From: a virus
Lineage: Duplodnaviria > Heunggongvirae > Uroviricota > Caudoviricetes
DNA length: 64,000 nt
IMG/VR virus record: IMGVR_UViG_3300029554_000003
Span: 77,064-141,063 of that record
Direction: 5' to 3' (one strand)
In this document: positions 45,811 to 63,389 of the stretch, piece after piece
Position numbering within the stretch: position 1 is the stretch's first letter
Layout: every line of letters starts with the position of its first letter
The notes under the pieces: model-generated
Database searches by the model: none
Told to the model about the DNA's origin: nothing
Seen by the model: only the letters and a program-made list of their open reading frames with translations
Translations under genes and position numbers: made by a program

Positions 45811-45985
45811 ATAAACAGCATCAGACCTCTCTCTGTCAAGTTTCGCTATAAAGAAGCGCTGCGAGTTATCATTATTCTGTATCTAATGCTGTTTTAAACA
45901 GGTAGGAGCGGCGTAAGAGATTCTAACTCTCACCAAAGGCTTGGAAGGCCTGTATGCTAACATTACACCAACGCCGCATATAAGG

Positions 45986-46059
45986 TGACAGTGATTAGAT
46001 TTGAACTAATGACCTCACGGGTATGAGCCGTGCGCTCTAACCATCTAAGCTACACTGCC
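45986..46059 (-). tRNA. tRNA-Met/Ile2 (CAU)
   Basis: GGCAGTG…GCTTAGATGGTTAGAGC…CACGG-CUCAUAC-CCGTG…CATTAGTTCAAATCTAATG-like T-arm…CACTGTC-A. Confidence 0.7.
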
Positions 46060-46073
46060 AAATAAACTAAAGG

Positions 46074-46146
46074 TGGGCCGTCAGGGGGTCGAACCCTGGA
46101 CCTTGGGATTAAGAGTCCCCTGCTCTACCAACTGAGCTAACGACCC
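46074..46146 (-). tRNA. tRNA-Lys (CUU)
   Basis: GGGTCGT TA GCTCAGTTGGTAGAGC A GGGGA-CUCUUAA-TCCCA AGGTC CAGGG-TTCGACC-CCCTG ACGGCCC A. One G·A at 27-43. Confidence 0.65.
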
Positions 46147-46154
46147 ATATAAGG

Positions 46155-46227
46155 TGTCCACGGGTAGAATTGAACTACCGACACGCAGATTTTCAGTCTA
46201 CTGCTCTACCTACTGAGCTACATGGAC
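46155..46227 (-). tRNA. tRNA-Phe (GAA)
   Basis: GTCCATG TA GCTCAGTAGGTAGAGC A GTAGA-CUGAAAA-TCTGC GTGTC GGTAG-TTCAATT-CTACC CGTGGAC A. Confidence 0.7.
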
Positions 46228-46231
46228 ATAT

Positions 46232-46306
46232 TGGCTTCTCTATTATGACTCGAACATAAACTAACGGAACCAAAATCCGTTGTGCTGCCAATTACACCAT
46301 AGAGAA
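46232..46306 (-). tRNA. tRNA-Gln (UUG) with encoded CCA
   Basis: U1:A72 acceptor TTCTCTA/TAGAGAA. Anticodon arm ACGGA-UUUUGGU-TCCGT. T-arm TTATG-TTCGAGT-CATAA. Then G-CCA. Confidence 0.65.
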
Positions 46307-46313
46307 ATTTTAG

Positions 46314-46385
46314 CGTGCCAGAGAAGATTCGAACTTCTATCTCGAGAGCGTCACCTCGCAATTTTGCCAGTTAAACTACTAACAC
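46314..46385 (-). tRNA. tRNA-like gene with non-canonical anticodon loop (6 or 8 nt)
   Basis: Perfect acceptor GTGTTAG/CTGGCAC (with G·U pairs). U8A9. D-arm GTTT-AACTGGCA-AAAT. Perfect T-arm AGAAG-TTCGAAT-CTTCT. Total length 72 nt. The anticodon helix CGAG(G)/(T)CTCG encloses GTGACGCT, so no 7-nt loop is possible. Anticodon undetermined. Confidence 0.45.
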
Positions 46386-46597
46386 ACTACTCACTAGTGG
46401 TAATTTTAAGGATAATTACGAACCTTTTAGTCTAAAGCTAGCTAGGCTTTAGAAGTTTGAAAATATAGGATTAAGCTATTTCCTATATTTTTCTATATAA
46501 CTAGTCGAACGTAAGAGCCGTATTTAACCAATTAAACTACCTCGCGTGATAAACGCGAAGGTTGGAGTCGAACCCACATCTGCTCTATGCTCGATTT

Positions 46598-46640
46598 GTT
46601 AACTATATTATATAAAATTATTTGGCGTTTGTCAAATTAA
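46598..46640 (-). promoter_or_regulatory. tRNA cluster 1 promoter (TTGACA-N17-TATAAT, near-identical to the one at 52325-52365)
   Basis: Reverse strand: TTGACAAACGCCAAATAATTTTATATAATATAG. The leader begins ACAAATCGAGC…GTGGGTTCGACTCCAAC… Overlaps the 3' end of the GIY-YIG gene. Confidence 0.6.
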
Positions 46641-46644
46641 TTTT

Positions 46645-47280
46645 TTAAATAAATTTCCAGTGTTTTTGATATGCAATTGTATTTGCTTTAGCTGCACTTC
46701 TAATATGCACAGTAATTCCACATATCTTTTTGGCTTGAGTATATTTATTCTCTTTTAAATATTTAGCCGCTTCTGTTATGGAATTAAAAATGATATTATC
46801 CGGTAGCATTAAAATTCTTTTACTATATTTTTGACGAACTAAATCTTGACTACTAAGAATAGAAACATTGCATTCTTCACAAGCTATTTTAACAGTTGAA
46901 ACATCACAACCGAAATATTGTGCTGTTTTCTTTTGATTTTGTAATTTTAAATACATATTAGCAATTTCTTGGTAATCGTAATATTTTTTACTATCGCCAC
47001 CTTTTGTAGCATTATATCCAGTATGACCATATGTGTTTAATTTAGCAATCCAATATTCTTCTCTTTTTGAAGAGTCTTCGGCAGAACATTCTTCTAATTG
47101 CTCAACATGAAAATGCTCAACGCCATATTTATTCATAGCAGAATACAGAGGACGTTTTTCACATCTTTCTTTTTTGCTATCTACAATATGCTCTCTAAAT
47201 CTTCTTTCGAGTGAAAAGTTGGTTTTGCCAACATATTGTTTTCCGTTAACATCATTTGTAATTACATAGATAAAAGCCAT
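46645..47280 (-). CDS. GIY-YIG homing endonuclease
   Basis: N-terminal IYVITNDVNGKQYVGKT…R…EH (GIY…YIG…R…E/H class). C-terminal DNA-binding region. Paralogue of 52591..53232. Sits at a tRNA cluster, as SegB does in T4. Confidence 0.65.
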   Translation of the reverse strand: MAFIYVITNDVNGKQYVGKTNFSLERRFREHIVDSKKERCEKRPLYSAMNKYGVEHFHVEQLEECSAEDSSKREEYWIAKLNTYGHTGYNATKGGDSKKYYDYQEIANMYLKLQNQKKTAQYFGCDVSTVKIACEECNVSILSSQDLVRQKYSKRILMLPDNIIFNSITEAAKYLKENKYTQAKKICGITVHIRSAAKANTIAYQKHWKFI

Positions 47281-47433
47281 ACAGTCCTCAATCCTACCTC
47301 AATAATAATATTGAGTAAGCAGGCGTTGAGGTTTATTCGCTTTTCCTTATGGTAGCTACTCCAATAAGTAGCTTACTCAATTATACAATATAAAAATCGT
47401 GTTATAGCGATTATATGATTTAGACCAAGATAG

Positions 47434-47524
47434 TGCAAGATTTTGGACTCGAACCAAAAATTTTCGCTAATCTGGCGATAATACAGTTTATAAGTCTGCT
47501 GTTTTACCATTAAACTAATCTTGC
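47434..47524 (-). tRNA. class-II-like tRNA embedded in a 17-bp extended stem; anticodon loop CUUAUAA (UAU?)
   Basis: Acceptor GCAAGAT/ATCTTGC. U8A9. D-arm GTTT-AATGGTA-AAAC. Anticodon arm GCAGA-CUUAUAA-ACTGT (A31·A39). Long variable hairpin TCGC-CAGATTA-GCGA. T-arm TTTGG-TTCGAGT-CCAAA. Flanked by the perfect 17-bp inverted repeat GACCAAGATAGTGCAAG/CTTGCACTATCTTGGTC. Confidence 0.5.
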
Positions 47525-47563
47525 ACTATCTTGGTCTTTATAAACTATAATCCAAAGTTTACA

Positions 47564-47637
47564 TGGACGATATTAAATTTGAACTAATGACCTCTTACGT
47601 ATCAATCAGCGCTCTAGCCAAACTGAGCTAACCGTCC
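47564..47637 (-). tRNA. tRNA-like paralogue of the CAU tRNA with disrupted anticodon stem (possible pseudogene)
   Basis: Acceptor GGACGGT/ATCGTCC. D-arm GCTC-AGTTTGGCTA-GAGC. T-arm ATTAG-TTCAAAT-TTAAT, nearly identical to 45986..46059. The anticodon region CTGATTGATACGTAAGA cannot form a 5-bp stem. Confidence 0.35.
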
Positions 47638-47681
47638 ATGCAATCTTTAGAATATAAATCTAATAAGTAACTGCTTTTAAA

Positions 47682-48587
47682 CTATTGGTGAGACTTTAGC
47701 CACTTCTGAACATACCAAAGCTGGCCGCACCCACCACCAATATCATCTTGACCAGCTGGGTCAAATGTCCTTACATTATAACCCTTTTTTAAGAACTTAT
47801 TCTGAAACTTCTTAATAACACTTAAGTTCCTAAACGCCGCGTCTTTCATGGTTTCATCAGATGCGCAAACTACACTAAAAGTAAAATTAAAGATTACAGG
47901 AGAAAACAGGTCTGTAAGTTCTTTAAAATTCTTATCTTCATTATTCGTTCCATCAATGCAGTAATTTAAGAACGGATGCCTACCTGTCTCTTTCCACCAG
48001 ATAGTTCCAGCATCCCTAATCTTTTGAAGATTCATCTTATTCTTAAATGGAATTAATACATTTCTCTCTGTATCATTGGACTTATGAATAGAAAATTGCA
48101 AACCAATTTTATCTATCTTCTTAGATAGAGCAATCATCTTTGCAAAAGTTTCATCATTATCGCATCCAATAGTCGAAAGTAGTAACTGAGCATTACTAAA
48201 CTGTTGATGAAGATTGATAATTGCTTTTTCAACTTCTGTCCAATTTAACATAGGCTCGCCCATGCTCATAAACATAAACTGTAACTTTTTACACTTTTCG
48301 TTAATGTCATTAATTAAACCTTTATCAGTTAAAACGGTTACAATCTGGTCTACAATTTCATCAGCAGTAAGATTCCTAACAAACTTAGACCCCGTGCCGC
48401 AAAAGCGACATCCAACAGGACAACCGCTCATAACACTACAACAAATTACAGTTCTATCATAGTAACTATTATATTTATATAGAACTGCTTCAGCGACCAT
48501 ATCTTTTTTTGTAAAGACATACTTCCATACATCGCCAGAATTTCCTTCAAAAGTCTTAAAATTCATAACAGCACTTTCATTTAGCAA
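47682..48587 (-). CDS. RlmN/Cfr-family radical-SAM RNA methyltransferase
   Basis: CCSVMSGCPVGCRFCGTG matches the CxxxCxxC cluster of the family. MSMGEPMLN matches MGMGEPLLN. LLSTIG matches TLSTSG. FSIHKSND matches ISLHAPND. C-terminal GQDDIGGGCGQLW matches GDDIDAACGQLAG. At 301 aa it is shorter than bacterial RlmN at the N-terminus. Confidence 0.65.
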   Translation of the reverse strand: MLNESAVMNFKTFEGNSGDVWKYVFTKKDMVAEAVLYKYNSYYDRTVICCSVMSGCPVGCRFCGTGSKFVRNLTADEIVDQIVTVLTDKGLINDINEKCKKLQFMFMSMGEPMLNWTEVEKAIINLHQQFSNAQLLLSTIGCDNDETFAKMIALSKKIDKIGLQFSIHKSNDTERNVLIPFKNKMNLQKIRDAGTIWWKETGRHPFLNYCIDGTNNEDKNFKELTDLFSPVIFNFTFSVVCASDETMKDAAFRNLSVIKKFQNKFLKKGYNVRTFDPAGQDDIGGGCGQLWYVQKWLKSHQ

Positions 48588-48817
48588 TCTTCGTCAAAAT
48601 AATAGTCTTCTAGCATAGCGGGAATGCCGTCAAGCAGCTCATTCTCGCCAAGAGTCTCTAAAGCAACATCAACCAAGTCGGCATCGTACATATCATAAAG
48701 CAGATCAAGATATGCGTCACGGTCAGATTTACTAATCTCCATTGTATTCCTCTTCGTCATACTCTCCATCATTGCATATCCAATCATTAACGCATACCTT
48801 GTCAGGTTCGTCATCAA
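48581..48817 (-). CDS. hypothetical acidic small protein
   Basis: 78 aa, after the conserved promoter copy at 48900-48960. Confidence 0.35.
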   Translation of the reverse strand: MMTNLTRYALMIGYAMMESMTKRNTMEISKSDRDAYLDLLYDMYDADLVDVALETLGENELLDGIPAMLEDYYFDEDC

Positions 48818-48974
48818 TTAAATGCTTGCGGCAAATTCCTAGATACCAAAGGTCTGTAGACTCATAATATTTGCAATTACCGCATATATTAGTCGCTTCA
48901 ACCATTATTTCTTCTTTCTCTTGGTTTCTTTAACTATATTATAGCATATCTTTTAACCAAAAGTCAAGAAAAAA

Positions 48975-49346
48975 TTAGGCATAAAATTCGTTGAAATTAT
49001 TAAGCCAATCCAAGAGAGCTAAAGATGTAAGTGGCGCCATGTTCCATAACTGCTCAGCACAATAAGTGCTAGTATGAGAAGGATTCTTTTCCATAGCATT
49101 TACAACAAGGTCATGGAAAACAGCACGGTCAACCTTTTTAAGTTCATCTACAATCTTCTCAATATCTTTCTGCTGACTAAGGTACACAATGAAATCAAGA
49201 ATCATAGCAGTCATTTTATTAAGGTGCATACTACACATTTCACTCATATTTCGACTCCAATTTAGGATGAATTGCCCATTCACCGCACCTGTCCCCACTT
49301 TGGGGAGAAGGATGTACAGTATAAACATTATAATCTGTTGGGTCAA
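48975..49346 (-). CDS. hypothetical protein
   Basis: 123 aa ORF. Confidence 0.35.
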   Translation of the reverse strand: MTQQIIMFILYILLPKVGTGAVNGQFILNWSRNMSEMCSMHLNKMTAMILDFIVYLSQQKDIEKIVDELKKVDRAVFHDLVVNAMEKNPSHTSTYCAEQLWNMAPLTSLALLDWLNNFNEFYA

Positions 49347-49438
49347 TAATTACATTTGGAGGAAAACGATAGCAACTGCAATTTTTGTAAAATCTGCAAT
49401 TGCCGCAGATACGCTGGACCTTATGCTTGACTTCCATT

Positions 49439-49975
49439 TTACTCTCCAAGCTCAATCTTCTTCTGCTGAACATCGAGCCAAATATCATGAATATTAACAG
49501 GAGTAAGATTATTCGTGTCAACACCTACATGATACGTCCAATCAACAAGACCCTTGGGAGCCGCATCATGGACATGACCGTACAGAATAACATTGGCGCT
49601 GTCTCCACACATTTCCTCGGGACGCTCGTGAATCATAATGAAACTGACATCGTTGTAATCAAGGCAAGATACCTTGTTTTCGATAATCCAGCCGAGCTTT
49701 TCCATTTCAGCAATGCGCTTCTTGGTATCGTGATTGCCGGGAATCACATGAATCTTTCCATTAAGACGAGAACCGTATTTAGCTACAGTCTCAAGCGGTC
49801 CCATGAAACAATCACCAAGATGGTAGACAGTATCATCAGGAGATACAACGGAATTCCACTTCTCAACGATGTGTTCGTTCATATCCTCGACATTATTAAA
49901 AGCACGCGACTGCTCACAATAGGTAATAATATTCTTGTGAGAAAAGTGAGTGTCGCTTACTACAAAGATGCTCAT
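49439..49975 (-). CDS. calcineurin-like metallophosphoesterase
   Basis: Likely start is MSIFVVSDTHFSH at 49975 (GGAGA RBS). Has the D-x-H, GD, GNHD and GH…H signature motifs. Confidence 0.65.
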   Translation of the reverse strand: MSIFVVSDTHFSHKNIITYCEQSRAFNNVEDMNEHIVEKWNSVVSPDDTVYHLGDCFMGPLETVAKYGSRLNGKIHVIPGNHDTKKRIAEMEKLGWIIENKVSCLDYNDVSFIMIHERPEEMCGDSANVILYGHVHDAAPKGLVDWTYHVGVDTNNLTPVNIHDIWLDVQQKKIELGE

Positions 49976-50033
49976 TGAATCTCCTTTCGATTTCTTAAAT
50001 ATATTATAACATAATATATAGCCAATAGTCAAC
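49976..50033 (-). promoter_or_regulatory. conserved promoter + leader copy
   Basis: Reverse strand TTGACT-N18-TATAAT, immediately after the terminator at 50034-50066. Confidence 0.55.
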
Positions 50034-50066
50034 AAAAAAAGGGACTCAAGAGAGTCCCTACAAAAA
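50034..50066 (-). terminator. intrinsic terminator closing tRNA cluster 2
   Basis: GGGACTC-tctt-GAGTCCC followed by TTTTTTT on the reverse strand. Confidence 0.6.
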
Positions 50067-50076
50067 TATCAATGTG

Positions 50077-50609
50077 TGCGGAAAAAGTTTATTCAGTGTT
50101 GGATGGTCATAAAAAATTGCTATATGAAGTAACTGAATAATAATCACGCACATTTGCGTCTATATAGCTCGCACACTATATAGACGAGAAAGGGGTTTAC
50201 AAATAACGACAAGGAAAAAATGTAAAGAGGGTGGGTGCTACTTTCTAATGAAAGCTGCTCTTATTTAAACATATAACGAAGTAACTCTTTACTAATCACT
50301 TGCCTTGCAAGAGAAAGCGATACGGAAATAGGCGTTTCAGTTTGAGTAATCAGCTCGGAATGGAGATTTGAAGTATCTGAAACATTATCACGTATCGCCC
50401 ACTTTAGTAAAATAAATGCGGAAAAGATAAAATCAGTTTAAACGTGCAACCGACACAGAGCTGGAGTCGAACCAGCGAGTACATTTTTCCAGAATGAAGT
50501 AACTGATTTATCATCACGCATTATAATAAATAAATGCGGAAAAGTTAGATTCAGTGTATAATATTAACATACCAAAATTAATGTGAAGTAACTGAATCTT
50601 AATCACGCA
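50077..50609. repeat. family of ~75-105-nt repeat elements (U1 50077-50150; partial 50277-50304; U2b 50326-50397; U3 50417-50520; U4 50535-50609)
   Basis: Each unit starts TGCGGAAAAG-[8-10 nt X] and ends TGAAGTAACTGA-[X' complementary to X]-(T/C)CACGCA. Internal sequences differ. U3 contains a perfect T-arm-like hairpin GCTGG-TTCGACT-CCAGC. Confidence 0.7.
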
Positions 50610-50735
50610 TTTAATAAACATTGGTGCCGCATCTAGGTAACGCTCCTAGCCAGTCTAAGACACTTGATTTACAGTCAAGACCTCGTCTTTAAAGGAATAC
50701 TGCGGCAGTTATATTTTAAAGTTTAGTATGCCTTG

Positions 50736-50817
50736 TCTTGGGTTCGGGAGTCGGACCCGAATGCCTTATGGCGCTATTTTTTGAGAATAGTGTGTATACC
50801 AGTTCCACCAACCCAAG
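50736..50817 (-). tRNA. tRNA-Leu (CAA)-like, class II, embedded in an extended stem
   Basis: Acceptor CTTGGGT/ACCCAAG. D-stem GTG/CAC. Anticodon arm CTATT-CUCAAAA-AATAG. Variable hairpin GCC-ATAA-GGC. T-arm TCGGG-TCCGACT-CCCGA (T-loop variant). Flanked by an ~18-bp imperfect inverted repeat AGTATGCCTT…/…AAGGCATACT. Confidence 0.45.
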
Positions 50818-50838
50818 GTAAGGCATACTAATATGTTT

Positions 50839-51288
50839 TTAATTGGTTTGTTCCTGAATCCCAAGCATATCAAAAAACTCGTCTGGAATAAACTTGTCAT
50901 CCAAAGGCTGATAGTCTTTCCAGATAATCAGAGGATACCAAGTCTTTGACCACTCAGTAAATTCAGCAAATTCATCATTATATCCAAAAGAAACAGCAAA
51001 ACCAAACCAGCTAGGCTTGACATGCGGGAAAGTCTTTTTGATAATTCCCTCGTTGTCAACAAAATCACCGATACGACCGCAAATAGTACAAACATTCCTA
51101 TAAGCATAAGTCCATTTACCAGCGTATTTATCATAATAGTTGATAATGATACTCTTACCATAATCATGCTTATGATTAGCCTTTTTCACAGTCTTTTTTT
51201 TCTGCTTACGAGCGGGAGCATTAGCAGCATCGTCAGGGATATAAGCGTATTTAGTTGCCAATACTTCATCCTTATAAGGATACGACAT
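50839..51288 (-). CDS. hypothetical protein
   Basis: 149 aa ORF. Confidence 0.4.
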   Translation of the reverse strand: MSYPYKDEVLATKYAYIPDDAANAPARKQKKKTVKKANHKHDYGKSIIINYYDKYAGKWTYAYRNVCTICGRIGDFVDNEGIIKKTFPHVKPSWFGFAVSFGYNDEFAEFTEWSKTWYPLIIWKDYQPLDDKFIPDEFFDMLGIQEQTN

Positions 51289-51545
51289 TTACAAAGCTCC
51301 TTTTCTGCTTTTGGATAAAATTATTTGGACAGAAGAATGTTATGAAGATATTCATCGGCTTCTTCAAACGTATCGAAGTCCTTGATAATCTCAAAACGAA
51401 CAGTTGAGCAATCAGTGTTGACACGAATAGAGTAGATGCCGCAAGTCTTTTCCTTGCAAATGACGAACTGCTTCATAACAAACCTCTTTCTCTCTCGGTT
51501 TATATATATTATATAATATTATAAACCAAAAGTCAAGGAAAAATA

Positions 51546-51637
51546 TGCGGAAAAATTGGGGTCAGACTAACAAATGCAGCGTACCGCATTTAAACATACC
51601 ATAATTCTTCACGAAGTAACTGAACCCTCGTCACGCA
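51546..51637. repeat. fifth copy (U5) of the GCGGAAAAG…GAAGTAACTGA…TCACGCA repeat element
   Basis: Same termini as U1-U4. Contains the internal hairpin AAATGC-agcgtacc-GCATTT. Confidence 0.6.
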
Positions 51638-51869
51638 TATTAAATCACTAATTATGAAAGAATGACACCCTGCTTCGCCTTGTTAATCTTGCGGCGAAGT
51701 TTGCGCATGATACCTACATTCTCTGAGTTCTTTCCCTTACGATTGATAAGCATCTGATAACGCTGCTCCATCGTCTCGACTGACTGTGCCATACTTTCTT
51801 ACCTTTCTCTTGGTTAAATATATTATATCAAATTACTCAACCATTTGTCAAGTAATTTTTTATAACAAA

Positions 51870-52300
51870 ATTGGTCGCGAAGTGCCGCTGACGCTGCGAC
51901 TTAACAGAGCTTATGAGACTCCGTGAGATACTGACCTCCCACCCGCAATTAAAGTAGTAGTTTTCACATCTGCCGAGGTTTGAAAACTACCAAAATATAC
52001 CAGATTCCTCTTCCCCTAGGCGTTTCTTTTCAAGTATACGCTGGCCCGCATTGTCTACGGCTACAGAGACGGCATATATAAAATCTTGCAAGCAAGATAA
52101 TATAATCACGTGGACGGTTTCAAACTGGGAAAGCCGCCAACCCTTTAATCTATAATCCCTGCAAAAGATTATAGAAGTCGGGAGACATTTACCTTGCAGC
52201 GATAACCTCTCCCCAAGCTATAACACAATCGTTAGGTGCTATTCTCACCAATTGAACTACAGCCCCTTGCGGGAAAGACAGGAGTCGAACCTGCATCTTC
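51870..52300 (-). ncRNA. second GC-rich structured non-coding region (~430 nt) behind the duplicated tRNA-cluster promoter
   Basis: No ORF of 60 aa or more. The leader after the promoter begins ACAAAATCGTGAAGGTGAAGATGCAGG-TTCGACT-CCTGT (isolated T-arm hairpin), then GGGGCTGTAGTTCAATTGGTGAGAATAGCACC (tRNA 5'-half-like), then ~350 nt of hairpin-rich sequence with no matching 3' half. Confidence 0.35.
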
Positions 52301-52324
52301 ACCTTCACGATTTTGTTAATTATA

Positions 52325-52365
52325 TTATATAAAATTACTTGGTATTTGTCAAGTAATTTTTTTAA
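52325..52365 (-). promoter_or_regulatory. tRNA cluster 2 promoter (TTGACA-N17-TATAAT)
   Basis: Reverse strand TTGACAAATACCAAGTAATTTTATATAATATAATTAACAAAATCG. Near-identical to the promoter and leader at 46598-46640. Confidence 0.6.
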
Positions 52366-52590
52366 CAGGCTGGCTCTTTCTGTGCTGCCCAGAAATTTTA
52401 TGATTCAGAGTCATATGTTCTACTGTTGAACTAAGAGCCAAAAAGTGGGCAAATTTATATAGCGACTGCCCAAACCGCTAAATTGACTTGGGGTAGTACA
52501 GGCGAGTTCAAAGCTCGGTCTACTACCACTTGGAGAGTGTCTAAGATTAGCACTCTATTTTAGTAATATATATATTACTAAAATACAACA

Positions 52591-53232
52591 CTAACTTTCT
52601 ACATATTCCCAATGGAAACCATACGATGTTTTGTTAATATTTTCACAAACCTGCTTAATATGCCTTGAAATTCCTTGTATAGATTTATTTGTAGTATAAT
52701 TGTTATCAAATAACCATTGAGACGCATCGTGCAATGATTGAAAAATTTTATTTTCTTCTATCAGTCGCACTTTTTTAGAATATCTTTCTTTACAAAGAGT
52801 ATTTGGTCGTAGCATTTCTATGCCACATTGTTTACATGCAAGTCGGACAGTATCAGCGCAACAATGAAAATATTTTGCTACTTTTATTGTATCATGTGTT
52901 TGTGAATACATGTCAGCTATTTTTTTATAATCATAAAATGAACAACCGTCTCCACCAATTGTAGCATTGTATCCATTGCGATAAGTATCTAATTTTGTTA
53001 TCCAATACTTTTCTTTTTCGTCAACTTCATCTGACGAACATTCTTCTAATTGAAAGGCATGAAAGTGCTCTACGCCATATTTTTTCATAGCTTTATAAAG
53101 AGGTCTACCTTGTATTTGTTCTTTTTTGCTGTCGCTTAAATGTTGGGCGAATCTTCTCTTAATTGTAAAATTAGTTTTTCCAACATATTTTTTGTTGTTG
53201 ACATCATTTACAATAACATAAATATAAGACAT
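52591..53232 (-). CDS. GIY-YIG homing endonuclease (second copy)
   Basis: Likely start is MSYIYVIVNDVNNKKYVGKT at 53232. Paralogue of 46645..47280, also adjacent to a tRNA-cluster promoter. Confidence 0.65.
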   Translation of the reverse strand: MSYIYVIVNDVNNKKYVGKTNFTIKRRFAQHLSDSKKEQIQGRPLYKAMKKYGVEHFHAFQLEECSSDEVDEKEKYWITKLDTYRNGYNATIGGDGCSFYDYKKIADMYSQTHDTIKVAKYFHCCADTVRLACKQCGIEMLRPNTLCKERYSKKVRLIEENKIFQSLHDASQWLFDNNYTTNKSIQGISRHIKQVCENINKTSYGFHWEYVES

Positions 53233-53502
53233 TTTATCACCCACTTAAATAATGAATGGAGCCAACTTAGGGTGCTGCCCCCTATGCTTCGCTTTACAAG
53301 AGCGATGTATTACTGTTATACTAAGCTGGCTTTACCAAAAAGAAAAATGAGCCTGCAATACTCTAGAAATCTTGCAGGCTCTAACACCACTATTACAATA
53401 TAAAAGTTGCGCAACAAAAATTATAACTTTTTGTCCAGAACTTTTATTTTGTAACTAAAAATATTATATCATATTGATATAAAGTCTGTCAAGAACTTTT
53501 TT

Positions 53503-54066
53503 TTAGCTGTCAAACCAATAGACAACAAGAATATCCTGCGGAGTTAGATAATATGCTCCTTCAATGCTACAATAACGCTTAATATCTTCGATAAAATCAC
53601 CGACACTATCTTTAAGCTCATTGTTAGAGGAATGACTTCCAAGCATATCATCTACCGCATACTTAGTAGAACTAATTGCATTATAATGATTGATAATATC
53701 AGAGAGCATGACAGCATTATATCCATATGCGCCGCACTCTTCCCAGTCTTCCCATTCTTTGAGAATTTTTTGCGGCACAAGACCATCATAGTCAAAATAC
53801 AGGCCAACGGGACAAGCAGATTCATCTACATATACACGGCCATTACCATCCATGAGCCAAGAAAACAACTCATAATTGCGACCATTGTATGGCTGGGCAT
53901 ATTCATACACGACACTATCATCATCATTGTTATAATACTTAGAAAATAACTCTACCGGATAATACTCTTCGCATCCATTCTTTTGTGCATACTCGCTAGT
54001 CTTGCGAGCAAGATAAACATGAATGTCTTGTCCCATAAAAAGCTCCTTACAGCGTATCCCTGTCAT
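53503..54066 (-). CDS. hypothetical protein
   Basis: 187 aa. The start may be M11 (MGQDIHVY). Confidence 0.4.
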   Translation of the reverse strand: MTGIRCKELFMGQDIHVYLARKTSEYAQKNGCEEYYPVELFSKYYNNDDDSVVYEYAQPYNGRNYELFSWLMDGNGRVYVDESACPVGLYFDYDGLVPQKILKEWEDWEECGAYGYNAVMLSDIINHYNAISSTKYAVDDMLGSHSSNNELKDSVGDFIEDIKRYCSIEGAYYLTPQDILVVYWFDS

Positions 54067-54400
54067 ATACTTGGCAGGAAAGGTTTAAGTCCATAAGATT
54101 GGCGTAAATATCACTAAGTCGATTCGCAATATCTGCACGAGTGTTATTCTTGCACGAACGACCATTAAGATTCTTAATCTCGTTTTCCAAGTCACTCAGC
54201 TCAGAGTTGATGGCATGTTGTACCTCGTACAAATCATCACCAATAAGACCTTCAACACCAGTTGCGTAATTCGTATTGTGATAATTGAAAAGCATCATGG
54301 ACTCTAGTTCATCATAGTTGAAGCCGTTCTCTTTCAAGCAAACGTCCAAGTCGCGCTTCGAGTCAATATTGTAATATTTATCTTTGACAAACAAATCCAT
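54047..54400 (-). CDS. hypothetical protein
   Basis: 117 aa, after the conserved promoter copy at 54401-54460. Confidence 0.4.
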   Translation of the reverse strand: MDLFVKDKYYNIDSKRDLDVCLKENGFNYDELESMMLFNYHNTNYATGVEGLIGDDLYEVQHAINSELSDLENEIKNLNGRSCKNNTRADIANRLSDIYANLMDLNLSCQVYDRDTL

Positions 54401-54465
54401 GATACCTTCCTCTCTTTCTTTAACTATATTATATAACTTCTTAAACCTCTTGGCAAGAACTTTTT

Positions 54466-54885
54466 TTAACCAAATAGCTTTAGCAGACGGGCAAAATCTT
54501 GGTCAAGAAGAGACTCATAGGAAGGACGGCTTGTGCGAACAGTCTTTGCATCCTTGGTATCCTTTTCAATTTCCTCAATCTGCTTCTTGATTTCCTCAGC
54601 CTGAGACTTTAGGTCAGCGAGCTTAGCCGCACGCTCTTCACGCTCCTTCTTAATCTTCTCAGCCTGCTCCTTATCCTTTTTCTGCTTACGGCCATTGGAT
54701 ACAGTCATAAGCTCACGTGTAAGAGTGCTAGTCAGTTCATCAATAACCTTCATAACATCTTTGCCACTAGCTTTATGGTCTAGGTCAAGACCGTCCGAAT
54801 CAGTTACATGTACACCAAAGTCTACGACACCATCCTCATTTGCTGTCATAGCTAGATTAAAATTTAGACCATAAGATTCTGCCAT
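54466..54885 (-). CDS. hypothetical protein with K/E-rich coiled coil
   Basis: 139 aa ORF. Confidence 0.4.
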   Translation of the reverse strand: MAESYGLNFNLAMTANEDGVVDFGVHVTDSDGLDLDHKASGKDVMKVIDELTSTLTRELMTVSNGRKQKKDKEQAEKIKKEREERAAKLADLKSQAEEIKKQIEEIEKDTKDAKTVRTSRPSYESLLDQDFARLLKLFG

Positions 54886-54978
54886 TTACCATTCTCCTTT
54901 TAATTCTTTTGTTCCTTTAACTTCGTTAATATTATAACAAATATTTTTCTAGAAGTCAACTATTTTATTGAAAATATT

Positions 54979-55752
54979 TTAGTACCAACCATGAGACTGC
55001 CAATGTGCGGCTGCATTTTCCCAGCTACCATATCTATTTGACACATATTGTTCAGCAACCCTGTCTTGATTTTCCTGCGACAAGTCTCCATTCAAATAGG
55101 AAATATCAAGCTGATATGCGCCATAGTAGCGTCCATTGGTTGCGCTATAACTGCCGCCACTTTCCTTAGAAACAATGAAATCACGTGCAGAGCCATTCCA
55201 AGAGTAATTAGAATATGAATAACTTGGTGTACTATATAAGTTAGACTGTTGATTCTGATAACTTACCTGCGCCGCAGCTTTTTGAGCAGCAGCTTCTTGA
55301 GCCGCACGTTCTTCTGCTTCTTTCTTCTCTTGGAGAGCTTTCTGTTTCTTATCTGCACCATACTGTTTCCAGCTATCAAGTCGAGCCTTATATTGCTTTA
55401 GTTCTGTAATAGTGTCGCAAACAGATTGCTTCTCCATAATATCTTGAATCTCTAAAATATCATTCTGTTCAAGATAATCTCCGTAATTCTGAATAATATA
55501 TATAACATCATCAAACTGAGAGTCTTTCATGTTACATTTATCCACTAGCCATGTCTGAGCGTTATCGTACCCATCTTCCTTATATGGAATCATAGCATCA
55601 AGTGTAGTTGTGCGGACTGCCGCATTTGTAATTTCATCATTAACGATAATTGCATCTGCTTCGTTTACACAAAAAGCATTTGTCACGCCAGCGAGTGCCA
55701 CTACGGATAGGCACATAGCCAATGCTTTCGTTTTGTTTTTAATGAATTTCAT
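54979..55752 (-). CDS. secreted transglycosylase-like protein (Rpf/IsaA-type domain)
   Basis: N-terminal signal peptide MKFIKNKTKALAMCLSVVALAGVTNAF. C-terminal KESGGSYSATNGRYYGAYQLD…VAEQYV…GSWENAAAHWQSHGW matches the transglycosylase-like ESGG…NG.YYG..Q…W core. Confidence 0.55.
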   Translation of the reverse strand: MKFIKNKTKALAMCLSVVALAGVTNAFCVNEADAIIVNDEITNAAVRTTTLDAMIPYKEDGYDNAQTWLVDKCNMKDSQFDDVIYIIQNYGDYLEQNDILEIQDIMEKQSVCDTITELKQYKARLDSWKQYGADKKQKALQEKKEAEERAAQEAAAQKAAAQVSYQNQQSNLYSTPSYSYSNYSWNGSARDFIVSKESGGSYSATNGRYYGAYQLDISYLNGDLSQENQDRVAEQYVSNRYGSWENAAAHWQSHGWY

Positions 55753-55848
55753 TCGGATAATTCCTCTTTCTATTCCTATACGACAAGACGATTGCTTAAA
55801 AATATATAAAAAATGTGGGCAAAAGATTATAATCTTTTGCCCAATTAG

Positions 55849-56661
55849 TTAATTTGTAAAACGGATTTGCTTCTTCTTTAAAACCTCGCCAAGAGACAGA
55901 AAATCTTCACATTTATTACAATGGTTTGATAGACGCTTGCAACAACGACGCTCGCAGTTAATTTTGCTTGCAGTGAAACTTGGGTGGATTGCGTCACAAT
56001 GAAAATCCATATCTACATCTTCATTGATTTCACTCATTTGACCATGCCAATATTTATTAATGAACCATGCACGATATAAGACATCAAACTTTGCCCAATC
56101 ACATGGCAAACCGCATTCAAATTCAAAGACATCAAAATACGGATTGATAGTATCCATATCTTTTGGCATAAAGATTGGAGCCTTTGGATTGATACCACGG
56201 TCAAGTGTCATTGACGGCACCTGATTTAAAATTAGCCGCATTTGAACATTATTCTCTTGACAAATATCATGAACATTCTTTAGATTATAACATAAATCAT
56301 CGGCAATATATACATCAGATACACCTAAATTGATAAAAGACTCAAGACAGGAATAGGTTGGAACCTTCATATCTTGATTAAAAAAAAACTTATATGAATT
56401 TTCTTTAAGCTCTGCGGCCTTTGTAATGTCTGTTGGTGCTACGCGGATATAAATCTTGTCTGACACCTTGTTAATTGACTTGACGGTAGGCATATGAATA
56501 CCTTCTGGGAATTCAAGATTGATACGAGTATCCTCATACTCCTGCGCAAAGTCAATTAGATCCTCAATTGAATTGCGAGATTTGTAAAAGAGAATGTTAA
56601 ACTCTTTAACTTCATCGTTCAATTCGCCATTCAATTGAAATGGAATTGCCAATTTAATCAT
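55849..56661 (-). CDS. hypothetical protein with C-terminal Cys cluster
   Basis: 270 aa ending …CERRCCKRLSNHCNKCEDF…. Confidence 0.4.
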   Translation of the reverse strand: MIKLAIPFQLNGELNDEVKEFNILFYKSRNSIEDLIDFAQEYEDTRINLEFPEGIHMPTVKSINKVSDKIYIRVAPTDITKAAELKENSYKFFFNQDMKVPTYSCLESFINLGVSDVYIADDLCYNLKNVHDICQENNVQMRLILNQVPSMTLDRGINPKAPIFMPKDMDTINPYFDVFEFECGLPCDWAKFDVLYRAWFINKYWHGQMSEINEDVDMDFHCDAIHPSFTASKINCERRCCKRLSNHCNKCEDFLSLGEVLKKKQIRFTN

Positions 56662-57204
56662 ATATCATCCTTTCATAATAACCTATTTTATATTATATAA
56701 CAAAAAAGGGCAATTGTCAAGAGACAATCACCCTAAAAATCATTAAAGATATGCGGCCAAACGATTCCACAACCATTGTGGCAAATCAGAAGTCTCGACC
56801 TCATAATCATCCAAGAGGTCATAAACAATATCGGCAGAAGCGTGCCCATCATATTCAGTTTCAATTGTCTGAATTACATAATTTACCTTCTGCTCCATCT
56901 CTTCCTCGGCAGCAAGAAGCATCATGGGATTGCCCACAGAATTGTCCATGTGCAGCATTATTAGTCCTCCATCAAAATGTCGACAATCTTGAACATGTCT
57001 GCGGAGATACGCTCTACGCGCACACCGTAAATGATGTGAATCATGTCAATTGCACCATCAACATGATATCCAGAACCATCATCACGATGCTCAAGATAAT
57101 AATTTGCAAGGTGCAGAATAGCAGCGTTGTAAGAAGCCATCATATCTTTTCCTCTCTCTTGGCTATACCATAATTATAGCATATGATATAGCCAATCGTC
57201 AAGA

Positions 57205-58152
57205 TTAATTTTCAAACCAGTTTCGCAACTCGATAACCGAGGGGCAAGTTCCACGACCTTTCTCGCGGCACTCTTCTACAAACTCAGGGATTGCGTCCAT
57301 GAGACGAGGTTCAAATGCAAGCTTGGTCTTGATGTTCTTGATAGCATCAATGTCGCGTCCAGTCCAAACCTGCTGTAAAACTCCACGAGCCTGCTTCCAG
57401 TTCTTGTACCAAGGAGTCTTATATTTCACCATGAAACCGTTCGCATCCTCGAAGACAAAGCCCTCGATGTATGCACGTGCGGCCCACTTGTCAATAAAGG
57501 CTTCAAACTCCTGCCAGTTAGCAATGACTTTGCTAAGAACCTTGCAATAGAATCCGAAATGTCCCGCTACGTCAATAAGTGTATAGTACCCCGCATGGCT
57601 ATAGTTGAAATCATTGTACACCAAGTCCAAAAGCACGAGGTGAGGATGCGAATACTCAACAATATGCGGGTCATGGATAGGGTCAATGCACTCGAAGACA
57701 GCAGTGCAGTCATTCTTGTGCAGATATTCTGCGAATTCCTCCTGCTGTGCAGTGGTCAACGTCTTGTCAAGAACGTCACGGATATATCCCGCGAAGTCTC
57801 CTTCATTCGTGCTCTTGGATGCGATGAACAGTTTACCGTCCTCGGTCGGGTCGGCAGAAATCATCGCAAGGAATCCGTTAGACTTGACATATGCACACAC
57901 AGGGAACACAAGATTCTCGCGCAGGCTAGCCATTTCAGTCTCAGGACGTTCTCCAATATTGAAGAACTTGTTGTACGAACGTGCAACAACCTTATTATCA
58001 TCTTTTACAAAAAGTCCGCGTGCTTTAACATTAATATCATCCCATGCTTGGTTGAAAAAGCACTTGTTTGAGAAATTAAAAGAAGAGATTCCATTGGCAA
58101 GATGTTTCTCGCGCACAAGCGAGCTATTACGCAGTATATCGACTTCGTTCAT
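57205..58152 (-). CDS. ATP-dependent RNA ligase-like nucleotidyltransferase
   Basis: Candidate motif I is K in VKSNGFLAM. Motif IV is EGFVFED. Motif V is VKYKTPWYKNWK. At 315 aa the size fits the Rnl2/DraRnl class. Confidence 0.5.
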   Translation of the reverse strand: MNEVDILRNSSLVREKHLANGISSFNFSNKCFFNQAWDDINVKARGLFVKDDNKVVARSYNKFFNIGERPETEMASLRENLVFPVCAYVKSNGFLAMISADPTEDGKLFIASKSTNEGDFAGYIRDVLDKTLTTAQQEEFAEYLHKNDCTAVFECIDPIHDPHIVEYSHPHLVLLDLVYNDFNYSHAGYYTLIDVAGHFGFYCKVLSKVIANWQEFEAFIDKWAARAYIEGFVFEDANGFMVKYKTPWYKNWKQARGVLQQVWTGRDIDAIKNIKTKLAFEPRLMDAIPEFVEECREKGRGTCPSVIELRNWFEN

Positions 58153-58200
58153 TTATCTTCCTCTCTCTTGGTTTAATAATATTATACCATATATAAGTGT
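58153..58200 (-). promoter_or_regulatory. conserved promoter + leader copy
   Basis: Reverse strand TTGCCG-N17-TATAAT then TATTAAACCAAGAGAGAGGAAG. Confidence 0.5.
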
Positions 58201-58467
58201 GTGCGGCAAATATTTTTTTCTACAAAAAAAAGGAAAAGGAACTAGTCCTTTCCCTTAGTAGCATTTTCTTCAAATTCCATGCGCTCTAACTTTTCCTTAC
58301 GTTTTGCCTTATAAGTATCGTCTTTGCGCTGACGAATTAGCTTTGCTTTATGGGAAAACTTTTCAAAAGTATCATCATCGCTATACTCAAGTTCGTCCCA
58401 GTCACGAATTTTCACAATAAATCCTTTCAAAGAAAAATGCTGTCTAATATAAGTCTGACAATCTGTC

Positions 58468-58544
58468 TGGTGGGCTATACAGAACTCGAATCTGTAACCT
58501 AAAGATTAGAAGTCTTTTGCTCTATCCATTTGAGCTAATAGCCC
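58468..58544 (-). tRNA. tRNA-Arg (UCU) with encoded CCA
   Basis: GGGCTAT TA GCTCAAATGGATAGAGC A AAAGA-CUUCUAA-TCTTT AGGTTA CAGAT-TCGAGTT-CTGTA ATAGCCC A CCA. Confidence 0.7.
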
Positions 58545-58569
58545 GTCAAACAGATTGTCTAGAACTTGT

Positions 58570-60282: not shown

Positions 60283-60283
60283 A

Positions 60284-63383: not shown

Positions 63384-63389
63384 TTTAAC

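What the first reader, a model, noticed from the sequence alone, without database searches (positions are those of the whole stretch)
46560..52365. Duplicated tRNA-cluster promoter + leader carrying an isolated GGTTCGACTCC T-arm hairpin; second structured RNA region
The promoter and leader at 46598-46640 and at 52325-52365 are near-identical. Both read TTGACAAA(T/C)(A/G)CCAA(A/G)TAATTTTATATAATATA, then ACAAA(A)TCG, then an isolated T-arm hairpin (GTGGG-TTCGACT-CCAAC in one, GCAGG-TTCGACT-CCTGT in the other) about 20 nt from the predicted start. A third copy of the same hairpin sits inside repeat unit U3 (GCTGG-TTCGACT-CCAGC at 50466-50482). None has an upstream tRNA body. In cluster 1 the hairpin's 3' flank (CCTTCGCG) can pair with the following CGCGAGG-TA-GTTTAATTGGTTAAA (tRNA 5'-half-like). 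In cluster 2 it is followed by GGGGCTG-TA-GTTCAATTGG… This arrangement is reminiscent of circularly permuted tRNA genes, or of a T-loop minihelix used as a processing or recognition handle. Cluster 2 then continues into a ~430-nt GC-rich ORF-free region (51870-52300).
Basis: partly seen in the sequence, partly recalled or inferred. Interest (0 to 1): 0.7.

Follow-up and report, generated by a model that had tools for sequence, protein, structure and literature searches.

The report
Y RNA-like tRNA mimics in phage
The two "orphan T-arm" leaders are conserved RNAs that fold like a tRNA with its parts in rearranged order, the known Y RNA-like (YrlA) design, and the same phage genome encodes the Ro60 protein that such RNAs normally bind; they are unusual mainly in heading tRNA operons about 15-21 kb from that gene.

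Summary
Two perfect sigma-70-type promoters on the minus strand each drive a shared leader (AACAAA(A)UCG). About 23 nt downstream come a T-arm, a closed acceptor hairpin, U8-A9, a D-arm and a basal stem. This is a tRNA cloverleaf in circularly permuted order with no anticodon arm. The structure is conserved and covaries across 17 distinct copies from about 21 related ~140-kb phage contigs.

The only Rfam family resembling it is YrlA (Y RNA-like), at sub-threshold scores. The same genome, just beyond the window, encodes a TROVE/Ro60 protein. That gene is conserved across the family, yet no module lies within 10 kb of it.

The elements are therefore best read as YrlA-class tRNA mimics, probably partners of the phage Ro60, placed as 5' leaders of tRNA operons. 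They are neither permuted tRNA genes nor deletion remnants.

The "430-nt region" is composite: module, a ~285-nt family-specific structured RNA, and a non-canonical tRNA(CAU)-like gene. The third T-arm sits in one copy of an unclassified repeat RNA family.

Ro60 binding and RNase P processing are inferred, not shown. I rate this a new variant of a known kind, of moderate interest.

The parts
46607..46635 (-). Promoter P1 (TTGACA-17-TATAAT) driving RNA1 and the downstream tRNA array
   Evidence: 12/12 consensus match; conserved in relatives
46494..46606 (-). RNA1, the full YrlA-like element. It comprises the leader AACAAAUCGAGC, a second stem UCGAGC (46589-46594) paired with GUUCGA (46505-46510), and the tRNA-like core.
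   Evidence: Rfam YrlA 26.6 bits over model positions 1-114; MFE fold shows basal stems plus three hairpins
46515..46585 (-). RNA1 tRNA-like core. Basal stem GAGC (46582-85) with GCUC (46515-18); V region AGAU; T-arm 46561-46577; closed acceptor hairpin 46540-46560 (CUUCGCG-UUUAUCA-CGCGAGG); U8-A9 at 46538-39; D-arm 46522-46537.
   Evidence: Own covariance model 61.1 bits; pair counts; acceptor hairpin z = -3.8
45905..46385 (-). Array of six tRNAs downstream of RNA1 (one odd tRNA, then Gln, Phe, Lys, Met, Gly)
   Evidence: ARAGORN and Rfam
52324..52352 (-). Promoter P2 driving RNA2
   Evidence: 12/12 consensus match
52235..52303 (-). RNA2 tRNA-like core. Basal stem GGUG (52300-03) with CACC (52235-38); V region AAGAU; T-arm 52278-52294; weak acceptor hairpin 52260-52277 (CUUUCCC-GCAA-GGGGCUG); U8-A9 at 52258-59; D-arm 52241-52257.
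   Evidence: Own covariance model 50.1 bits; Rfam YrlA 20.7 bits over 52217-52319; 14 distinct homologs
51949..52234 (-). Central structured RNA of the cluster-2 transcript. It is a series of hairpins, ORF-free, GC 0.42, and specific to this phage family.
   Evidence: Alifold with compensatory pairs; nhmmer hits only in family loci; no Rfam match at E<=10
51872..51947 (-). Non-canonical tRNA(CAU)-like gene with anticodon loop CUCAUAA, T-loop AGCGUCA and an ACCA end. In some relatives it is replaced by a canonical tRNA-Met(CAT).
   Evidence: Cloverleaf 94% paired against 38-53% slid, and 4 of 5 T-stem pairs doubly changed; ARAGORN tRNA-Met at the same position in L005, L006, L012 and L020
50460..50476 (-). 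Third T-arm-like hairpin (GCUGG-UUCGACU-CCAGC), inside repeat unit U3
   Evidence: Local hit of the covariance model, 15.6 bits; compensatory GCAGG/CCUGC in relatives
50415..50530 (-). U3, one copy of the U-repeat RNA family. It is the scaffold that carries the third T-arm.
   Evidence: no Rfam match

Best explanation
RNA1 (46494-46606, minus strand) and the 5' module of RNA2 (52235-52303, minus strand) are paralogous Y RNA-like (YrlA-class) tRNA mimics.

Each is transcribed from a strong sigma-70-type promoter. The RNA folds into a tRNA 'elbow plus acceptor' made of a T-arm, an acceptor stem closed by a loop, U8-A9 and a D-arm. The nucleotides for U8-A14, A15-U48, G18-U55, G19-C56 and U54-A58 are all in place. 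The flanks pair into a basal stem where the anticodon stem would be.

Inferred steps:
- The basal stem and conserved 5' leader are bound by the phage's own Ro60/TROVE protein, encoded about 15 kb (RNA2) and 21 kb (RNA1) away in the same RNA-repair/tRNA gene block.
- The tRNA-like head is recognised by tRNA enzymes. RNase P can nick RNA1 at the 5' side of its 7-bp acceptor strand, as happens with M. smegmatis YrlA, and this would also separate the element from the downstream tRNA precursor.
- The resulting RNP acts in RNA quality control or repair during infection.

Shown here: sequence, fold, conservation and covariation, promoter context, and the presence of Ro60. Inferred: Ro60 binding, RNase P/CCA processing, and biological role.
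For: 1. YrlA is the top Rfam match for both elements, with full-length alignments.
2. The permuted cloverleaf is 88% paired against 41-51% in slid controls. 13 of 20 pairs change on both sides, and the covariation score is 0.50 against about 0.1. RNA1's acceptor hairpin changes by compensatory substitutions between lineages.
3. L226 is 100% identical to window 52,871-64,000. It encodes a 486-aa TROVE protein at window-equivalent ~67.15-68.6 kb, homologous to Thermus phage Ro60 at E=4e-22.
4. TROVE is present in 19 of the 21 family contigs that carry RNA2.
5. No other YrlA-like element lies next to TROVE. The window modules are therefore the only candidates found in the sequence I could search: the 64-kb window and +/-10 kb around TROVE, about half of the ~141-kb genome.
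6. The same module type in unrelated phages lies beside TROVE or Ro60-vWA proteins (L114, L098, L107). Those scored on Rfam YrlA reach only 32-38 bits (L114 and L107), so sub-threshold scores are normal for phage members.
7. Neighbouring genes include Rnl1, an Rnl2-type ligase, a P-loop kinase, a metallophosphatase and a SpoU methylase.
8. Precedents in the literature: PMC4201824 and PMC12135203.
Against: - Rfam scores (26.6 and 20.7 bits) are far below the gathering score of 69. The E-values (8e-4, 0.089) apply to 281-nt and 601-nt searches and would not be significant over the whole window.
- The family's GNCGAA(N)G motif is not matched exactly. RNA1 in the window has AUCGAG, relatives have GUCGAG, and RNA2 has AUCGUGAAG.
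- The elements are 15-21 kb from Ro60 and on the opposite strand. Described YrlA genes lie within 4 kb on the same strand.
- RNA2's acceptor hairpin is weak or absent in most variants. L022's RNA1 carries several stem-breaking changes.
- I set the structural register of alignment A2 by hand, and many of the double changes separate the two paralogs.
Confidence: 0.6

Rival explanations
1. Ro60-independent operon leader. The tRNA-like module serves only as an entry or processing site (RNase P, then 5'-monophosphate-stimulated RNase E) or as a 5' stabiliser for the polycistronic tRNA transcripts it heads.
For: Both copies sit about 23 nt after the start of tRNA-containing transcription units. RNA1 has the 7-bp acceptor plus 5-bp T-stem stack that RNase P needs, and M. 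smegmatis YrlA is cut there (PMC4201824). Similar modules lie inside tRNA arrays of unrelated phages whose fetched flanks show no Ro60 gene (L054, L065, L061, L073).
Against: RNA2's acceptor is only 4 bp in the window and in most relatives, which makes it a poor RNase P substrate. The conserved basal stem and leader are not needed for RNase P. Co-occurrence with a family-wide Ro60 gene would then be coincidence. This explanation also overlaps with the best one, since both could be true.
Confidence: 0.2
2. Decaying by-products of tandem tRNA duplication followed by truncation. The junction of two copies of one tRNA gives T-arm, acceptor 3' strand, spacer, acceptor 5' strand and D-arm automatically. 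On this view there is no present function.
For: Duplication and truncation would create exactly this order with all stems paired at birth. RNA1's acceptor 3' strand (CUUCGCG) equals that of the tRNA(CAU)-like gene at 51872-51947. RNA2's acceptor and L022's RNA1 look eroded.
Against: There are compensatory changes within lineages and between the paralogs in all four helices. The modules are kept at the same promoter-proximal place in 14 (RNA2) and 7 (RNA1) distinct variants. The tertiary-pair nucleotides and the 5' leader are invariant. The same architecture recurs in unrelated phages.
Confidence: 0.08
3. True circularly permuted or split tRNA gene. Its transcript would be nicked at the acceptor loop and joined or assembled, for example by the phage Rnl1, into a working tRNA.
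For: The 3'-half-before-5'-half order is present, and the phage encodes Rnl1, an Rnl2-type ligase and a kinase. If the internal loop of RNA1's basal stem were closed it would read UUAC+AUA, which is 7 nt.
Against: There is no anticodon arm and no CCA. The stem in the anticodon position is 4 bp and continues into a second helix. Position 37 would be U. ARAGORN and the Rfam tRNA and tmRNA models do not call it. No bacterial pathway for maturing permuted tRNAs is known (my own knowledge).
Confidence: 0.03

Closest known systems
YrlA (Y RNA-like A; Rfam RF02553; Chen et al. 2014, PMC4201824)
   Same: The order is the same: 5' stem strand, V region, T-arm, closed acceptor-like stem, D-arm, 3' stem strand. 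The nucleotides for tRNA tertiary pairs, including an A15:U48 Levitt pair, are conserved. The genome encodes a Ro60/TROVE protein. Phage examples are known.
   Different: The Rfam score is far below gathering. The GNCGAA(N)G motif is only approximated. The elements lie 15-21 kb from Ro60 on the opposite strand, not within 4 kb on the same strand. They are duplicated and placed as promoter-proximal leaders of tRNA operons. One copy is fused to a ~285-nt structured RNA and a tRNA(CAU)-like gene.
Mycobacterium smegmatis YrlA (RNase P-cleaved, CCA-added two-piece form; PMC4201824)
   Same: RNA1 has the 7-bp closed acceptor stem that the authors consider the determinant of RNase P cleavage.
   Different: Cleavage and CCA addition are untested here. 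RNA2 lacks the 7-bp stem in most variants.
Thermus phage phiLo Ro60 with Yrl1/Yrl2 (PMC12135203)
   Same: This is a phage-encoded Ro60 homologous to the one in this genome (E=4e-22), with phage-encoded Y RNA-like partners.
   Different: Yrl1 and Yrl2 lie directly upstream of the Ro60 gene. As I read the paper's text, they are stem-bulge-stem RNAs with a CGAA motif, and no tRNA-like domain is mentioned.
Circularly permuted tRNA genes of Cyanidioschyzon merolae (my own knowledge)
   Same: The 3' half (T-arm, acceptor 3' strand) is encoded upstream of the 5' half (acceptor 5' strand, D-arm).
   Different: Those genes encode complete tRNAs with anticodon arms, matured through a circular intermediate by eukaryotic or archaeal splicing enzymes. 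The elements here have no anticodon arm.
Phage T4 stable RNAs species 1 and 2 (rnaC, rnaD) in the tRNA cluster (my own knowledge)
   Same: They are small stable non-tRNA RNAs co-transcribed with phage tRNAs, of unknown function.
   Different: No sequence or structure comparison was made here, and T4 has no Ro60.

Membership tests
YrlA / bacterial Y RNA-like (RF02553) | tRNA-like domain: T-arm, closed acceptor-like stem, D-arm and V region, with conserved tertiary-pair nucleotides | tested here: met
   Full-length alignment to the model. 88% of cells paired and 13 of 20 pairs doubly changed. U8, A14, A15/U48, G18 G19 and UUCGA are all present.
YrlA / bacterial Y RNA-like (RF02553) | Score at or above Rfam's gathering threshold (69 bits) | tested here: not met
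   26.6 bits (RNA1) and 20.7 bits (RNA2); no hit at gathering. Calibration: phage elements beside Ro60-type genes score only 32.0 (L114) and 38.2 (L107) bits.
YrlA / bacterial Y RNA-like (RF02553) | GNCGAA(N0-1)G motif near the 5' end (presumed Ro60 contact; PMC4201824) | tested here: inconclusive
   Window RNA1 has AAUCGAGC, relatives L004 and L022 have AGUCGAG(C/G), and RNA2 has AAUCGUGAAGG. This gives 3-5 of 6 positions. The TROVE-adjacent element of L114 also reads GACGAGG.
YrlA / bacterial Y RNA-like (RF02553) | 5' and 3' ends pair into a stem below the tRNA-like domain | tested here: met
   GAGC/GCUC plus UCGAGC/GUUCGA in RNA1. GGUG/CACC in RNA2. The 4-bp stem is 98.5% paired, with 3 of 4 pairs covarying.
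YrlA / bacterial Y RNA-like (RF02553) | Encoded within ~4 kb of a Ro60/TROVE gene on the same strand | tested here: not met
   TROVE lies at window-equivalent ~67.15-68.6 kb on the + strand, ~15 kb from RNA2 and ~21 kb from RNA1. No module lies within +/-10 kb of TROVE in 22 family loci.
YrlA / bacterial Y RNA-like (RF02553) | Genome encodes a Ro60/Rsr ortholog | tested here: met
   A PF05731 TROVE protein of 486 aa in L226, which is 100% identical to the window over 11.1 kb. E=4e-22 to phage Ro60 structures 9KOP and 9L5Y. Present in 19 of 21 family contigs.
YrlA / bacterial Y RNA-like (RF02553) | Physically bound by Ro60/Rsr | not testable with these tools
   Needs EMSA or co-immunoprecipitation.
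Circularly permuted tRNA gene | 3' half encoded upstream of 5' half | tested here: met
   The order T-arm, acceptor, D-arm is read directly from the sequence.
Circularly permuted tRNA gene | Complete tRNA, including an anticodon arm, that can be reassembled | tested here: not met
   There is no anticodon stem-loop. The position is occupied by a 4-bp stem that continues into a second helix or a 285-nt insert. No tRNA is called.
Canonical tRNA (RF00005 / ARAGORN) | Cloverleaf in standard order, detected by tRNA finders | tested here: not met
   No call over 46494-46606 or 52217-52319. There is only a 15.7-bit partial tRNA hit.
Two-piece (permuted) tmRNA | Acceptor piece, then coding piece with a tag reading frame; detected by ARAGORN or RF04321 | tested here: not met
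   ARAGORN finds no tmRNA. There is no tmRNA or tmRNA_permuted hit at E<=10 over 51800-52400. The same models do find a tmRNA in L107.
Known large phage-associated RNAs (GOLLD, ROOL, group I intron) for the central region 51949-52234 | Match to the family covariance model | tested here: not met
   No such hit even at E<=10.

The most novel reading that the evidence does not exclude
The leaders are co-transcriptional loading sites that couple the phage Ro60 to its own tRNA operons. RNase P nicks the closed acceptor, CCA is added, and the resulting two-piece tRNA mimic with Ro60 bound recruits the neighbouring repair enzymes (Rnl1, Rnl2-type ligase, kinase, phosphatase) or host PNPase. This would allow it to survey, repair or protect phage tRNAs against host anticodon nucleases. 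The hypervariable acceptor hairpin of RNA2 would reflect an arms race or homing-endonuclease target-site turnover. The U repeats, one of which carries the same T-arm, and the 285-nt RNA would be further Ro60 ligands. Together this would make a multi-RNA phage Ro60 system.
Probability: 0.12. Interest if true: 0.8.

Novelty: new variant of a known kind. Interest (0 to 1): 0.5.

Why it matters
Ro60-Y RNA particles are well known from human autoimmunity and from bacterial RNA decay, but what they do in phages is barely understood. In this ~141-kb phage family the Ro60 gene is conserved, and the only Y RNA-like elements I could find near it are built into the starts of two tRNA operons, next to a full set of RNA-repair enzymes.

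That gives a concrete, testable link between Ro60, tRNA mimicry and phage tRNA supply or repair. It also shows that the usual search rule (a Y RNA within 4 kb of Ro60, above the Rfam threshold) misses phage members. Similar closed-acceptor tRNA mimics turned up in tRNA arrays of many unrelated phages, several of them beside TROVE or Ro60-vWA-like proteins.

Tried and rejected
1. **Permuted two-piece tmRNA for cluster 2.** The 5' strand GGGGCUG resembles a tmRNA start. I rejected this because ARAGORN and the Rfam tmRNA models give no hit, there is no G3:U70, no plausible tag, and GGGGCUG is not conserved in relatives.

2. **Group I intron, GOLLD, ROOL, RNase P RNA or T-box for the central region.** No Rfam hit at E<=10.

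3. **One giant Y-like RNA closed by pairing of the 5' leader with the far 3' end.** This is seen in the MFE fold. I consider it doubtful because the 3' partner is the acceptor strand plus trailer of the tRNA(CAU)-like gene and is not conserved in the L006/L012 group. A compensatory G4-C69 to A-U change supports the local tRNA-like pairing instead.

4. **An anticodon-like hairpin AGCAC/GUGUU after RNA2's D-arm.** It is broken by the G-to-A change in L014, L016 and L025, while the basal stem is kept.

5. **DUF2828/DUF7788 proteins as proven Ro60 homologs.** Only the vWA/MIDAS part aligns (hhalign E=2e-4, probability 45%), and there is no PDB sequence hit even with a profile. I therefore call them 'Ro60-vWA-like' only.

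6. **Many hits of my covariance model in other phages (for example L150, L218, L029, L042, L101) turned out to be ordinary tandem-tRNA junctions.** I discarded them after ARAGORN/Rfam checks.

7. **U repeats as C/D-box-like RNAs.** GUGAUGA occurs in U3, but the box is not conserved in other copies and the only Rfam hit is on the wrong strand at E=2.6.

8. **A Ro60 homolog inside the window.** None was found among ORFs of 300 aa or more, nor by tblastn.

9. **Close relatives among deposited phages.** None were found; only tRNA-sized matches appeared.

10. **Reviews and the 2014 supplementary tables on phage YrlA positions.** These were not available.


Full report
**Observation.** All features lie on the minus strand. 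Two perfect sigma-70-type promoters (46635->46607 and 52352->52324, 12/12 matches) are each followed by a shared leader (UUAACAAA(A)UCG). About 23 nt after the predicted start comes a T-arm with the loop UUCGACU. The exact motif GGTTCGACTCC occurs three times in the 64-kb window, against 0.01 expected. It is found only at the three 'orphan' T-arms and in none of the phage's called tRNAs. ARAGORN and Rfam call no tRNA over them. The promoter itself is a phage-wide consensus: there are nine TTGAC-N16-19-TATAATATA sites, all on the minus strand. What is specifically duplicated is therefore the leader plus the RNA that follows. Small corrections: the U3 hairpin is at 50460-50476, and the '430-nt GC-rich' stretch has a GC content of only 0.42-0.45 and is composite.

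**Anatomy.**
- RNA1 core (46515-46585) reads GAGC / AGAU / GUGGG-UUCGACU-CCAAC / CUUCGCG-UUUAUCA-CGCGAGG / UA / GUUU-AAUUGGUU-AAAU / ACG / GCUC. A second helix, UCGAGC (46589-94) with GUUCGA (46505-10), lies below it.
- RNA2 core (52235-52303) reads GGUG / AAGAU / GCAGG-UUCGACU-CCUGU / CUUUCCC-GCAA-GGGGCUG / UA / GUUC-AAUUGGUGA-GAAU / AG / CACC.
- This is a tRNA cloverleaf in circularly permuted order. The acceptor is capped by a loop, there is no anticodon arm, and the two flanks pair where the anticodon stem would be.
- The nucleotides for U8-A14, A15-U48, G18-U55, G19-C56 and U54-A58 are all present.
- A covariance model built from the family finds exactly these two full copies in the window (61 and 50 bits). 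U3 matches only as a local T-arm hit.

**Comparative evidence.** A neighbouring protein gene retrieved 21 related viral contigs of 80-147 kb from one metagenome. RNA2 is present in 17 of the loci and RNA1 in 7 distinct variants. In RNA1 the acceptor hairpin changes by compensatory substitutions: CUUCGCG/CGCGAGG becomes UCUCGCAC/GUGCGAGG, with a different loop. Between the paralogs every helix differs while staying paired. On a structure-registered alignment of 17 distinct copies:
- 88.2% of cells are paired, against 41-51% when partners are slid.
- 13 of 20 pairs have changes on both sides.
- The covariation score is 0.50, against about 0.1.

Caveats: I set the register by hand, and the two paralogs supply many of the double changes. 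RNA1's T-stem has one mismatch in most lineages. L022's copy carries several disruptive changes. RNA2's acceptor hairpin is hypervariable and convincingly stable only in the L013 and L011 variants (z -4.6 and -3.3), being a 4-bp hairpin in the window.

**What it resembles.** The only Rfam family that aligns over the full length is YrlA (Y RNA-like). RNA1 scores 26.6 bits and RNA2 20.7 bits, against a gathering score of 69. The quoted E-values apply to very short searches and are not significant on their own. YrlA RNAs are Ro60-bound tRNA mimics with this same order of elements. They are defined by the tRNA-like domain, a GNCGAA(N)G motif near the 5' end, and a position within 4 kb of Ro60 on the same strand. 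M. smegmatis YrlA, which has a 7-bp closed acceptor, is cut by RNase P and receives CCA (PMC4201824).

**The partner protein.** No ORF in the window has a TROVE domain. However, contigs encoding the window's terminal ORFs extend beyond it. L226 (ENA ERZ27235336 k119_50901, 141,103 bp) is 100% identical to window 52,871-64,000. It encodes a 486-aa TROVE protein at window-equivalent ~67.15-68.6 kb on the + strand.
- The protein is homologous to the Thermus phage Ro60 structures (E=4e-22).
- It has its own promoter and terminator.
- It sits in a block with an Rnl2-type ligase, a P-loop kinase, a SpoU methylase and Rnl1. The window adds a metallophosphatase and many tRNAs.
- The gene is present at 83-99% identity in 19 of the 21 family contigs.
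- No YrlA-like element lies beside it, by Rfam at E<=1 or by my model with filters off. None lies within +/-10 kb of it in 22 family loci.

The window's two modules, about 15 kb and 21 kb away on the other strand, are therefore the only Y RNA-like candidates I found. I could scan only about 84 kb of the ~141-kb genome.

**A wider class.** A degenerate pattern and the covariance model recovered many hits in other viral contigs. Most were tandem-tRNA junctions, but a clean set had no tRNA on either half and a paired, CCA-less acceptor hairpin: L107/L141, L061, L073, L054, L065, L098, L106, L114, L115, L069, L146, L158, L163, L171, L178, L185, L202 and L145. They lie in or next to tRNA arrays.
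- In L114 a true Ro60 (TROVE + Ro60-vWA; E=5e-25 to phage Ro60) starts about 430 nt downstream of one module, and about 90 nt after a second element that Rfam scores as YrlA at 32 bits.
- L098 and L107 have DUF2828/DUF7788 proteins with a Ro60-type vWA domain nearby.
- L107's module scores 38 bits on YrlA.

Sub-threshold scores are therefore normal for phage members of this class. The DUF2828 protein family is common in large phages (more than 170 hits) and typically sits downstream of tRNA arrays. Its relation to Ro60 beyond the vWA domain is unproven.

**Cluster 2 downstream.** The alignment shows that the last 76 nt (51872-51947) form a tRNA(CAU)-like gene with anticodon loop CUCAUAA, a non-canonical T-loop AGCGUCA and an encoded ACCA end. 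Its cloverleaf is 94% paired against 38-53% slid, and 4 of 5 T-stem pairs change on both sides. In L005, L006, L012 and L020 the same position holds a canonical tRNA-Met(CAT). Between the module and this tRNA lies a ~285-nt ORF-free RNA made of hairpins, with a few true compensatory changes. It is found only in this phage family and matches no Rfam family. Its nature remains open.

**U3.** The third T-arm sits in the variable part of one copy of a repeat family with the layout stem A, UGA, N5, stem B, UUACUUC, variable region, stem B', N5, UUUUCC, stem A'. There are at least five clear copies plus one or two diverged ones. They lie in an operon after tRNA-Leu and a tRNA-Tyr-like gene and before an intrinsic terminator. 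The hairpin is conserved with a compensatory change. The family is specific to this phage group and is unclassified.

**Mechanism and rivals.** The best-supported reading (confidence 0.6) is that these are YrlA-class tRNA mimics that partner with the phage Ro60, placed as 5' leaders of tRNA operons. RNA1 is likely to be nicked by RNase P, as mycobacterial YrlA is. The rivals are:
- a Ro60-independent processing or stability leader (0.2), which is not exclusive of the best reading;
- eroding by-products of tandem tRNA duplication (0.08);
- a true permuted or split tRNA (0.03).

Ro60 binding, processing and biological role are inferences.

**Novelty.** Phage Ro60 with Y RNA-like partners is known from mycobacteriophages, CcrColossus, phage G and phiLo (PMC4201824, PMC12135203, PMC7824862). 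The new points here are the position (remote from Ro60, opposite strand, promoter-proximal in tRNA operons), the duplication, the fusion to a further structured RNA and a tRNA-like gene, and the hypervariable acceptor hairpin. I found no paper describing such elements in phage tRNA operons. I rate this a new variant of a known kind, with interest 0.5.

Noticed in passing
window 50070-50610 and 51546-51640 (minus strand): There is a tandem family of ~80-115-nt structured 'U' repeats with the layout stem A, (G)UGA, N5, UUCAG, UUACUUC, variable 21-58 nt, CUGAA, N5, UUUUCC, stem A'. It has 5 clear copies plus 1-2 diverged ones (~50330-50400, ~50225-50300). They are co-transcribed after tRNA-Leu and a tRNA-Tyr-like gene, ahead of a terminator at 50040-50059. 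There is no Rfam match, and the family occurs only in this phage group. They could be further Ro60 ligands, since YrlB also carries a T-arm, but that is untested.
   Followed up: partly
window 50627-50713 (minus strand): An unannotated tRNA-Tyr(GUA)-like gene has a long variable arm, an odd D region, the non-canonical T-loop AGCGUUA and an encoded ACCA end. ARAGORN and Rfam both miss it. It shares the unusual AGCGUYA T-loop with the tRNA(CAU)-like gene at 51872-51947. It is conserved at 85-100% in relatives.
   Followed up: partly
window 52260-52277, and ORFs 46645-47280 and 52591-53244: RNA2's acceptor hairpin is hypervariable. At least four unrelated sequences occur among phages whose flanking RNA is 90-100% identical. 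Both modules lie just downstream of GIY-YIG homing-endonuclease genes. The variability might reflect endonuclease target-site turnover or gene conversion, as in T4 segB (my own knowledge).
   Followed up: no
window 46313-46385 and 47563-47638 (minus strand): ARAGORN reports two tRNAs with irregular anticodon loops, read as four-base anticodons 'gacg' and 'gata'. The first is conserved in relatives L012 and L022. They could be frameshift-suppressor-like or otherwise unusual tRNAs.
   Followed up: no
window 47433-47524 (minus strand): tRNA-Ile(UAU) is 92 nt long, with a ~20-nt insertion in the variable region (Rfam alignment). This is unusual for tRNA-Ile. It is conserved in relatives.
   Followed up: no
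L107/L141, L098 and 80 further loci (L142-L220): A ~500-aa DUF2828/DUF7788 protein with a Ro60-type vWA/MIDAS domain is very common in large phages (more than 170 hits). It usually lies downstream of big tRNA arrays, and L107 also has a tmRNA. About a dozen of the 80 loci hold clean closed-acceptor tRNA-like modules upstream on the same strand. This may be a second Ro60-like protein and tRNA-mimic pairing.
   Followed up: partly
L185 6109-6209 and L178 4655-4724: In these unrelated phages the T-arm, a closed acceptor (3-nt loop) and a D-arm are followed by an anticodon-arm-like hairpin (loops CUGAUAA and CUGUUAA). All four tRNA arms are therefore present in permuted order, which is closer to a true permuted or split tRNA than the window's elements are.
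   Followed up: no
window 57205-63383 and L226 1-10000: There is an extended RNA-repair and modification block: Rnl1 (57205-58152), SpoU methylase (60284-60856), a P-loop KTI12/AAA_33 kinase (62871-63383) and a Band_7 protein. Beyond the window lie an Rnl2-type ligase and Ro60. A metallophosphatase (49439-50035) and a radical-SAM protein (47682-48587) sit among the tRNAs. The tail genes carry SPbeta-type Pfam names (YomU, YonB, YomW), which hints at a Bacillota host.
   Followed up: partly
L016/L002 (contig 3300045988_101503): In this relative, a deletion that joins an upstream ORF (equivalent to window ~49240) to the sequence GCAUAGAGC has removed RNA1's promoter, leader and outer 5' strand. 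The tRNA-like core is left intact. This is a natural truncation variant.
   Followed up: no
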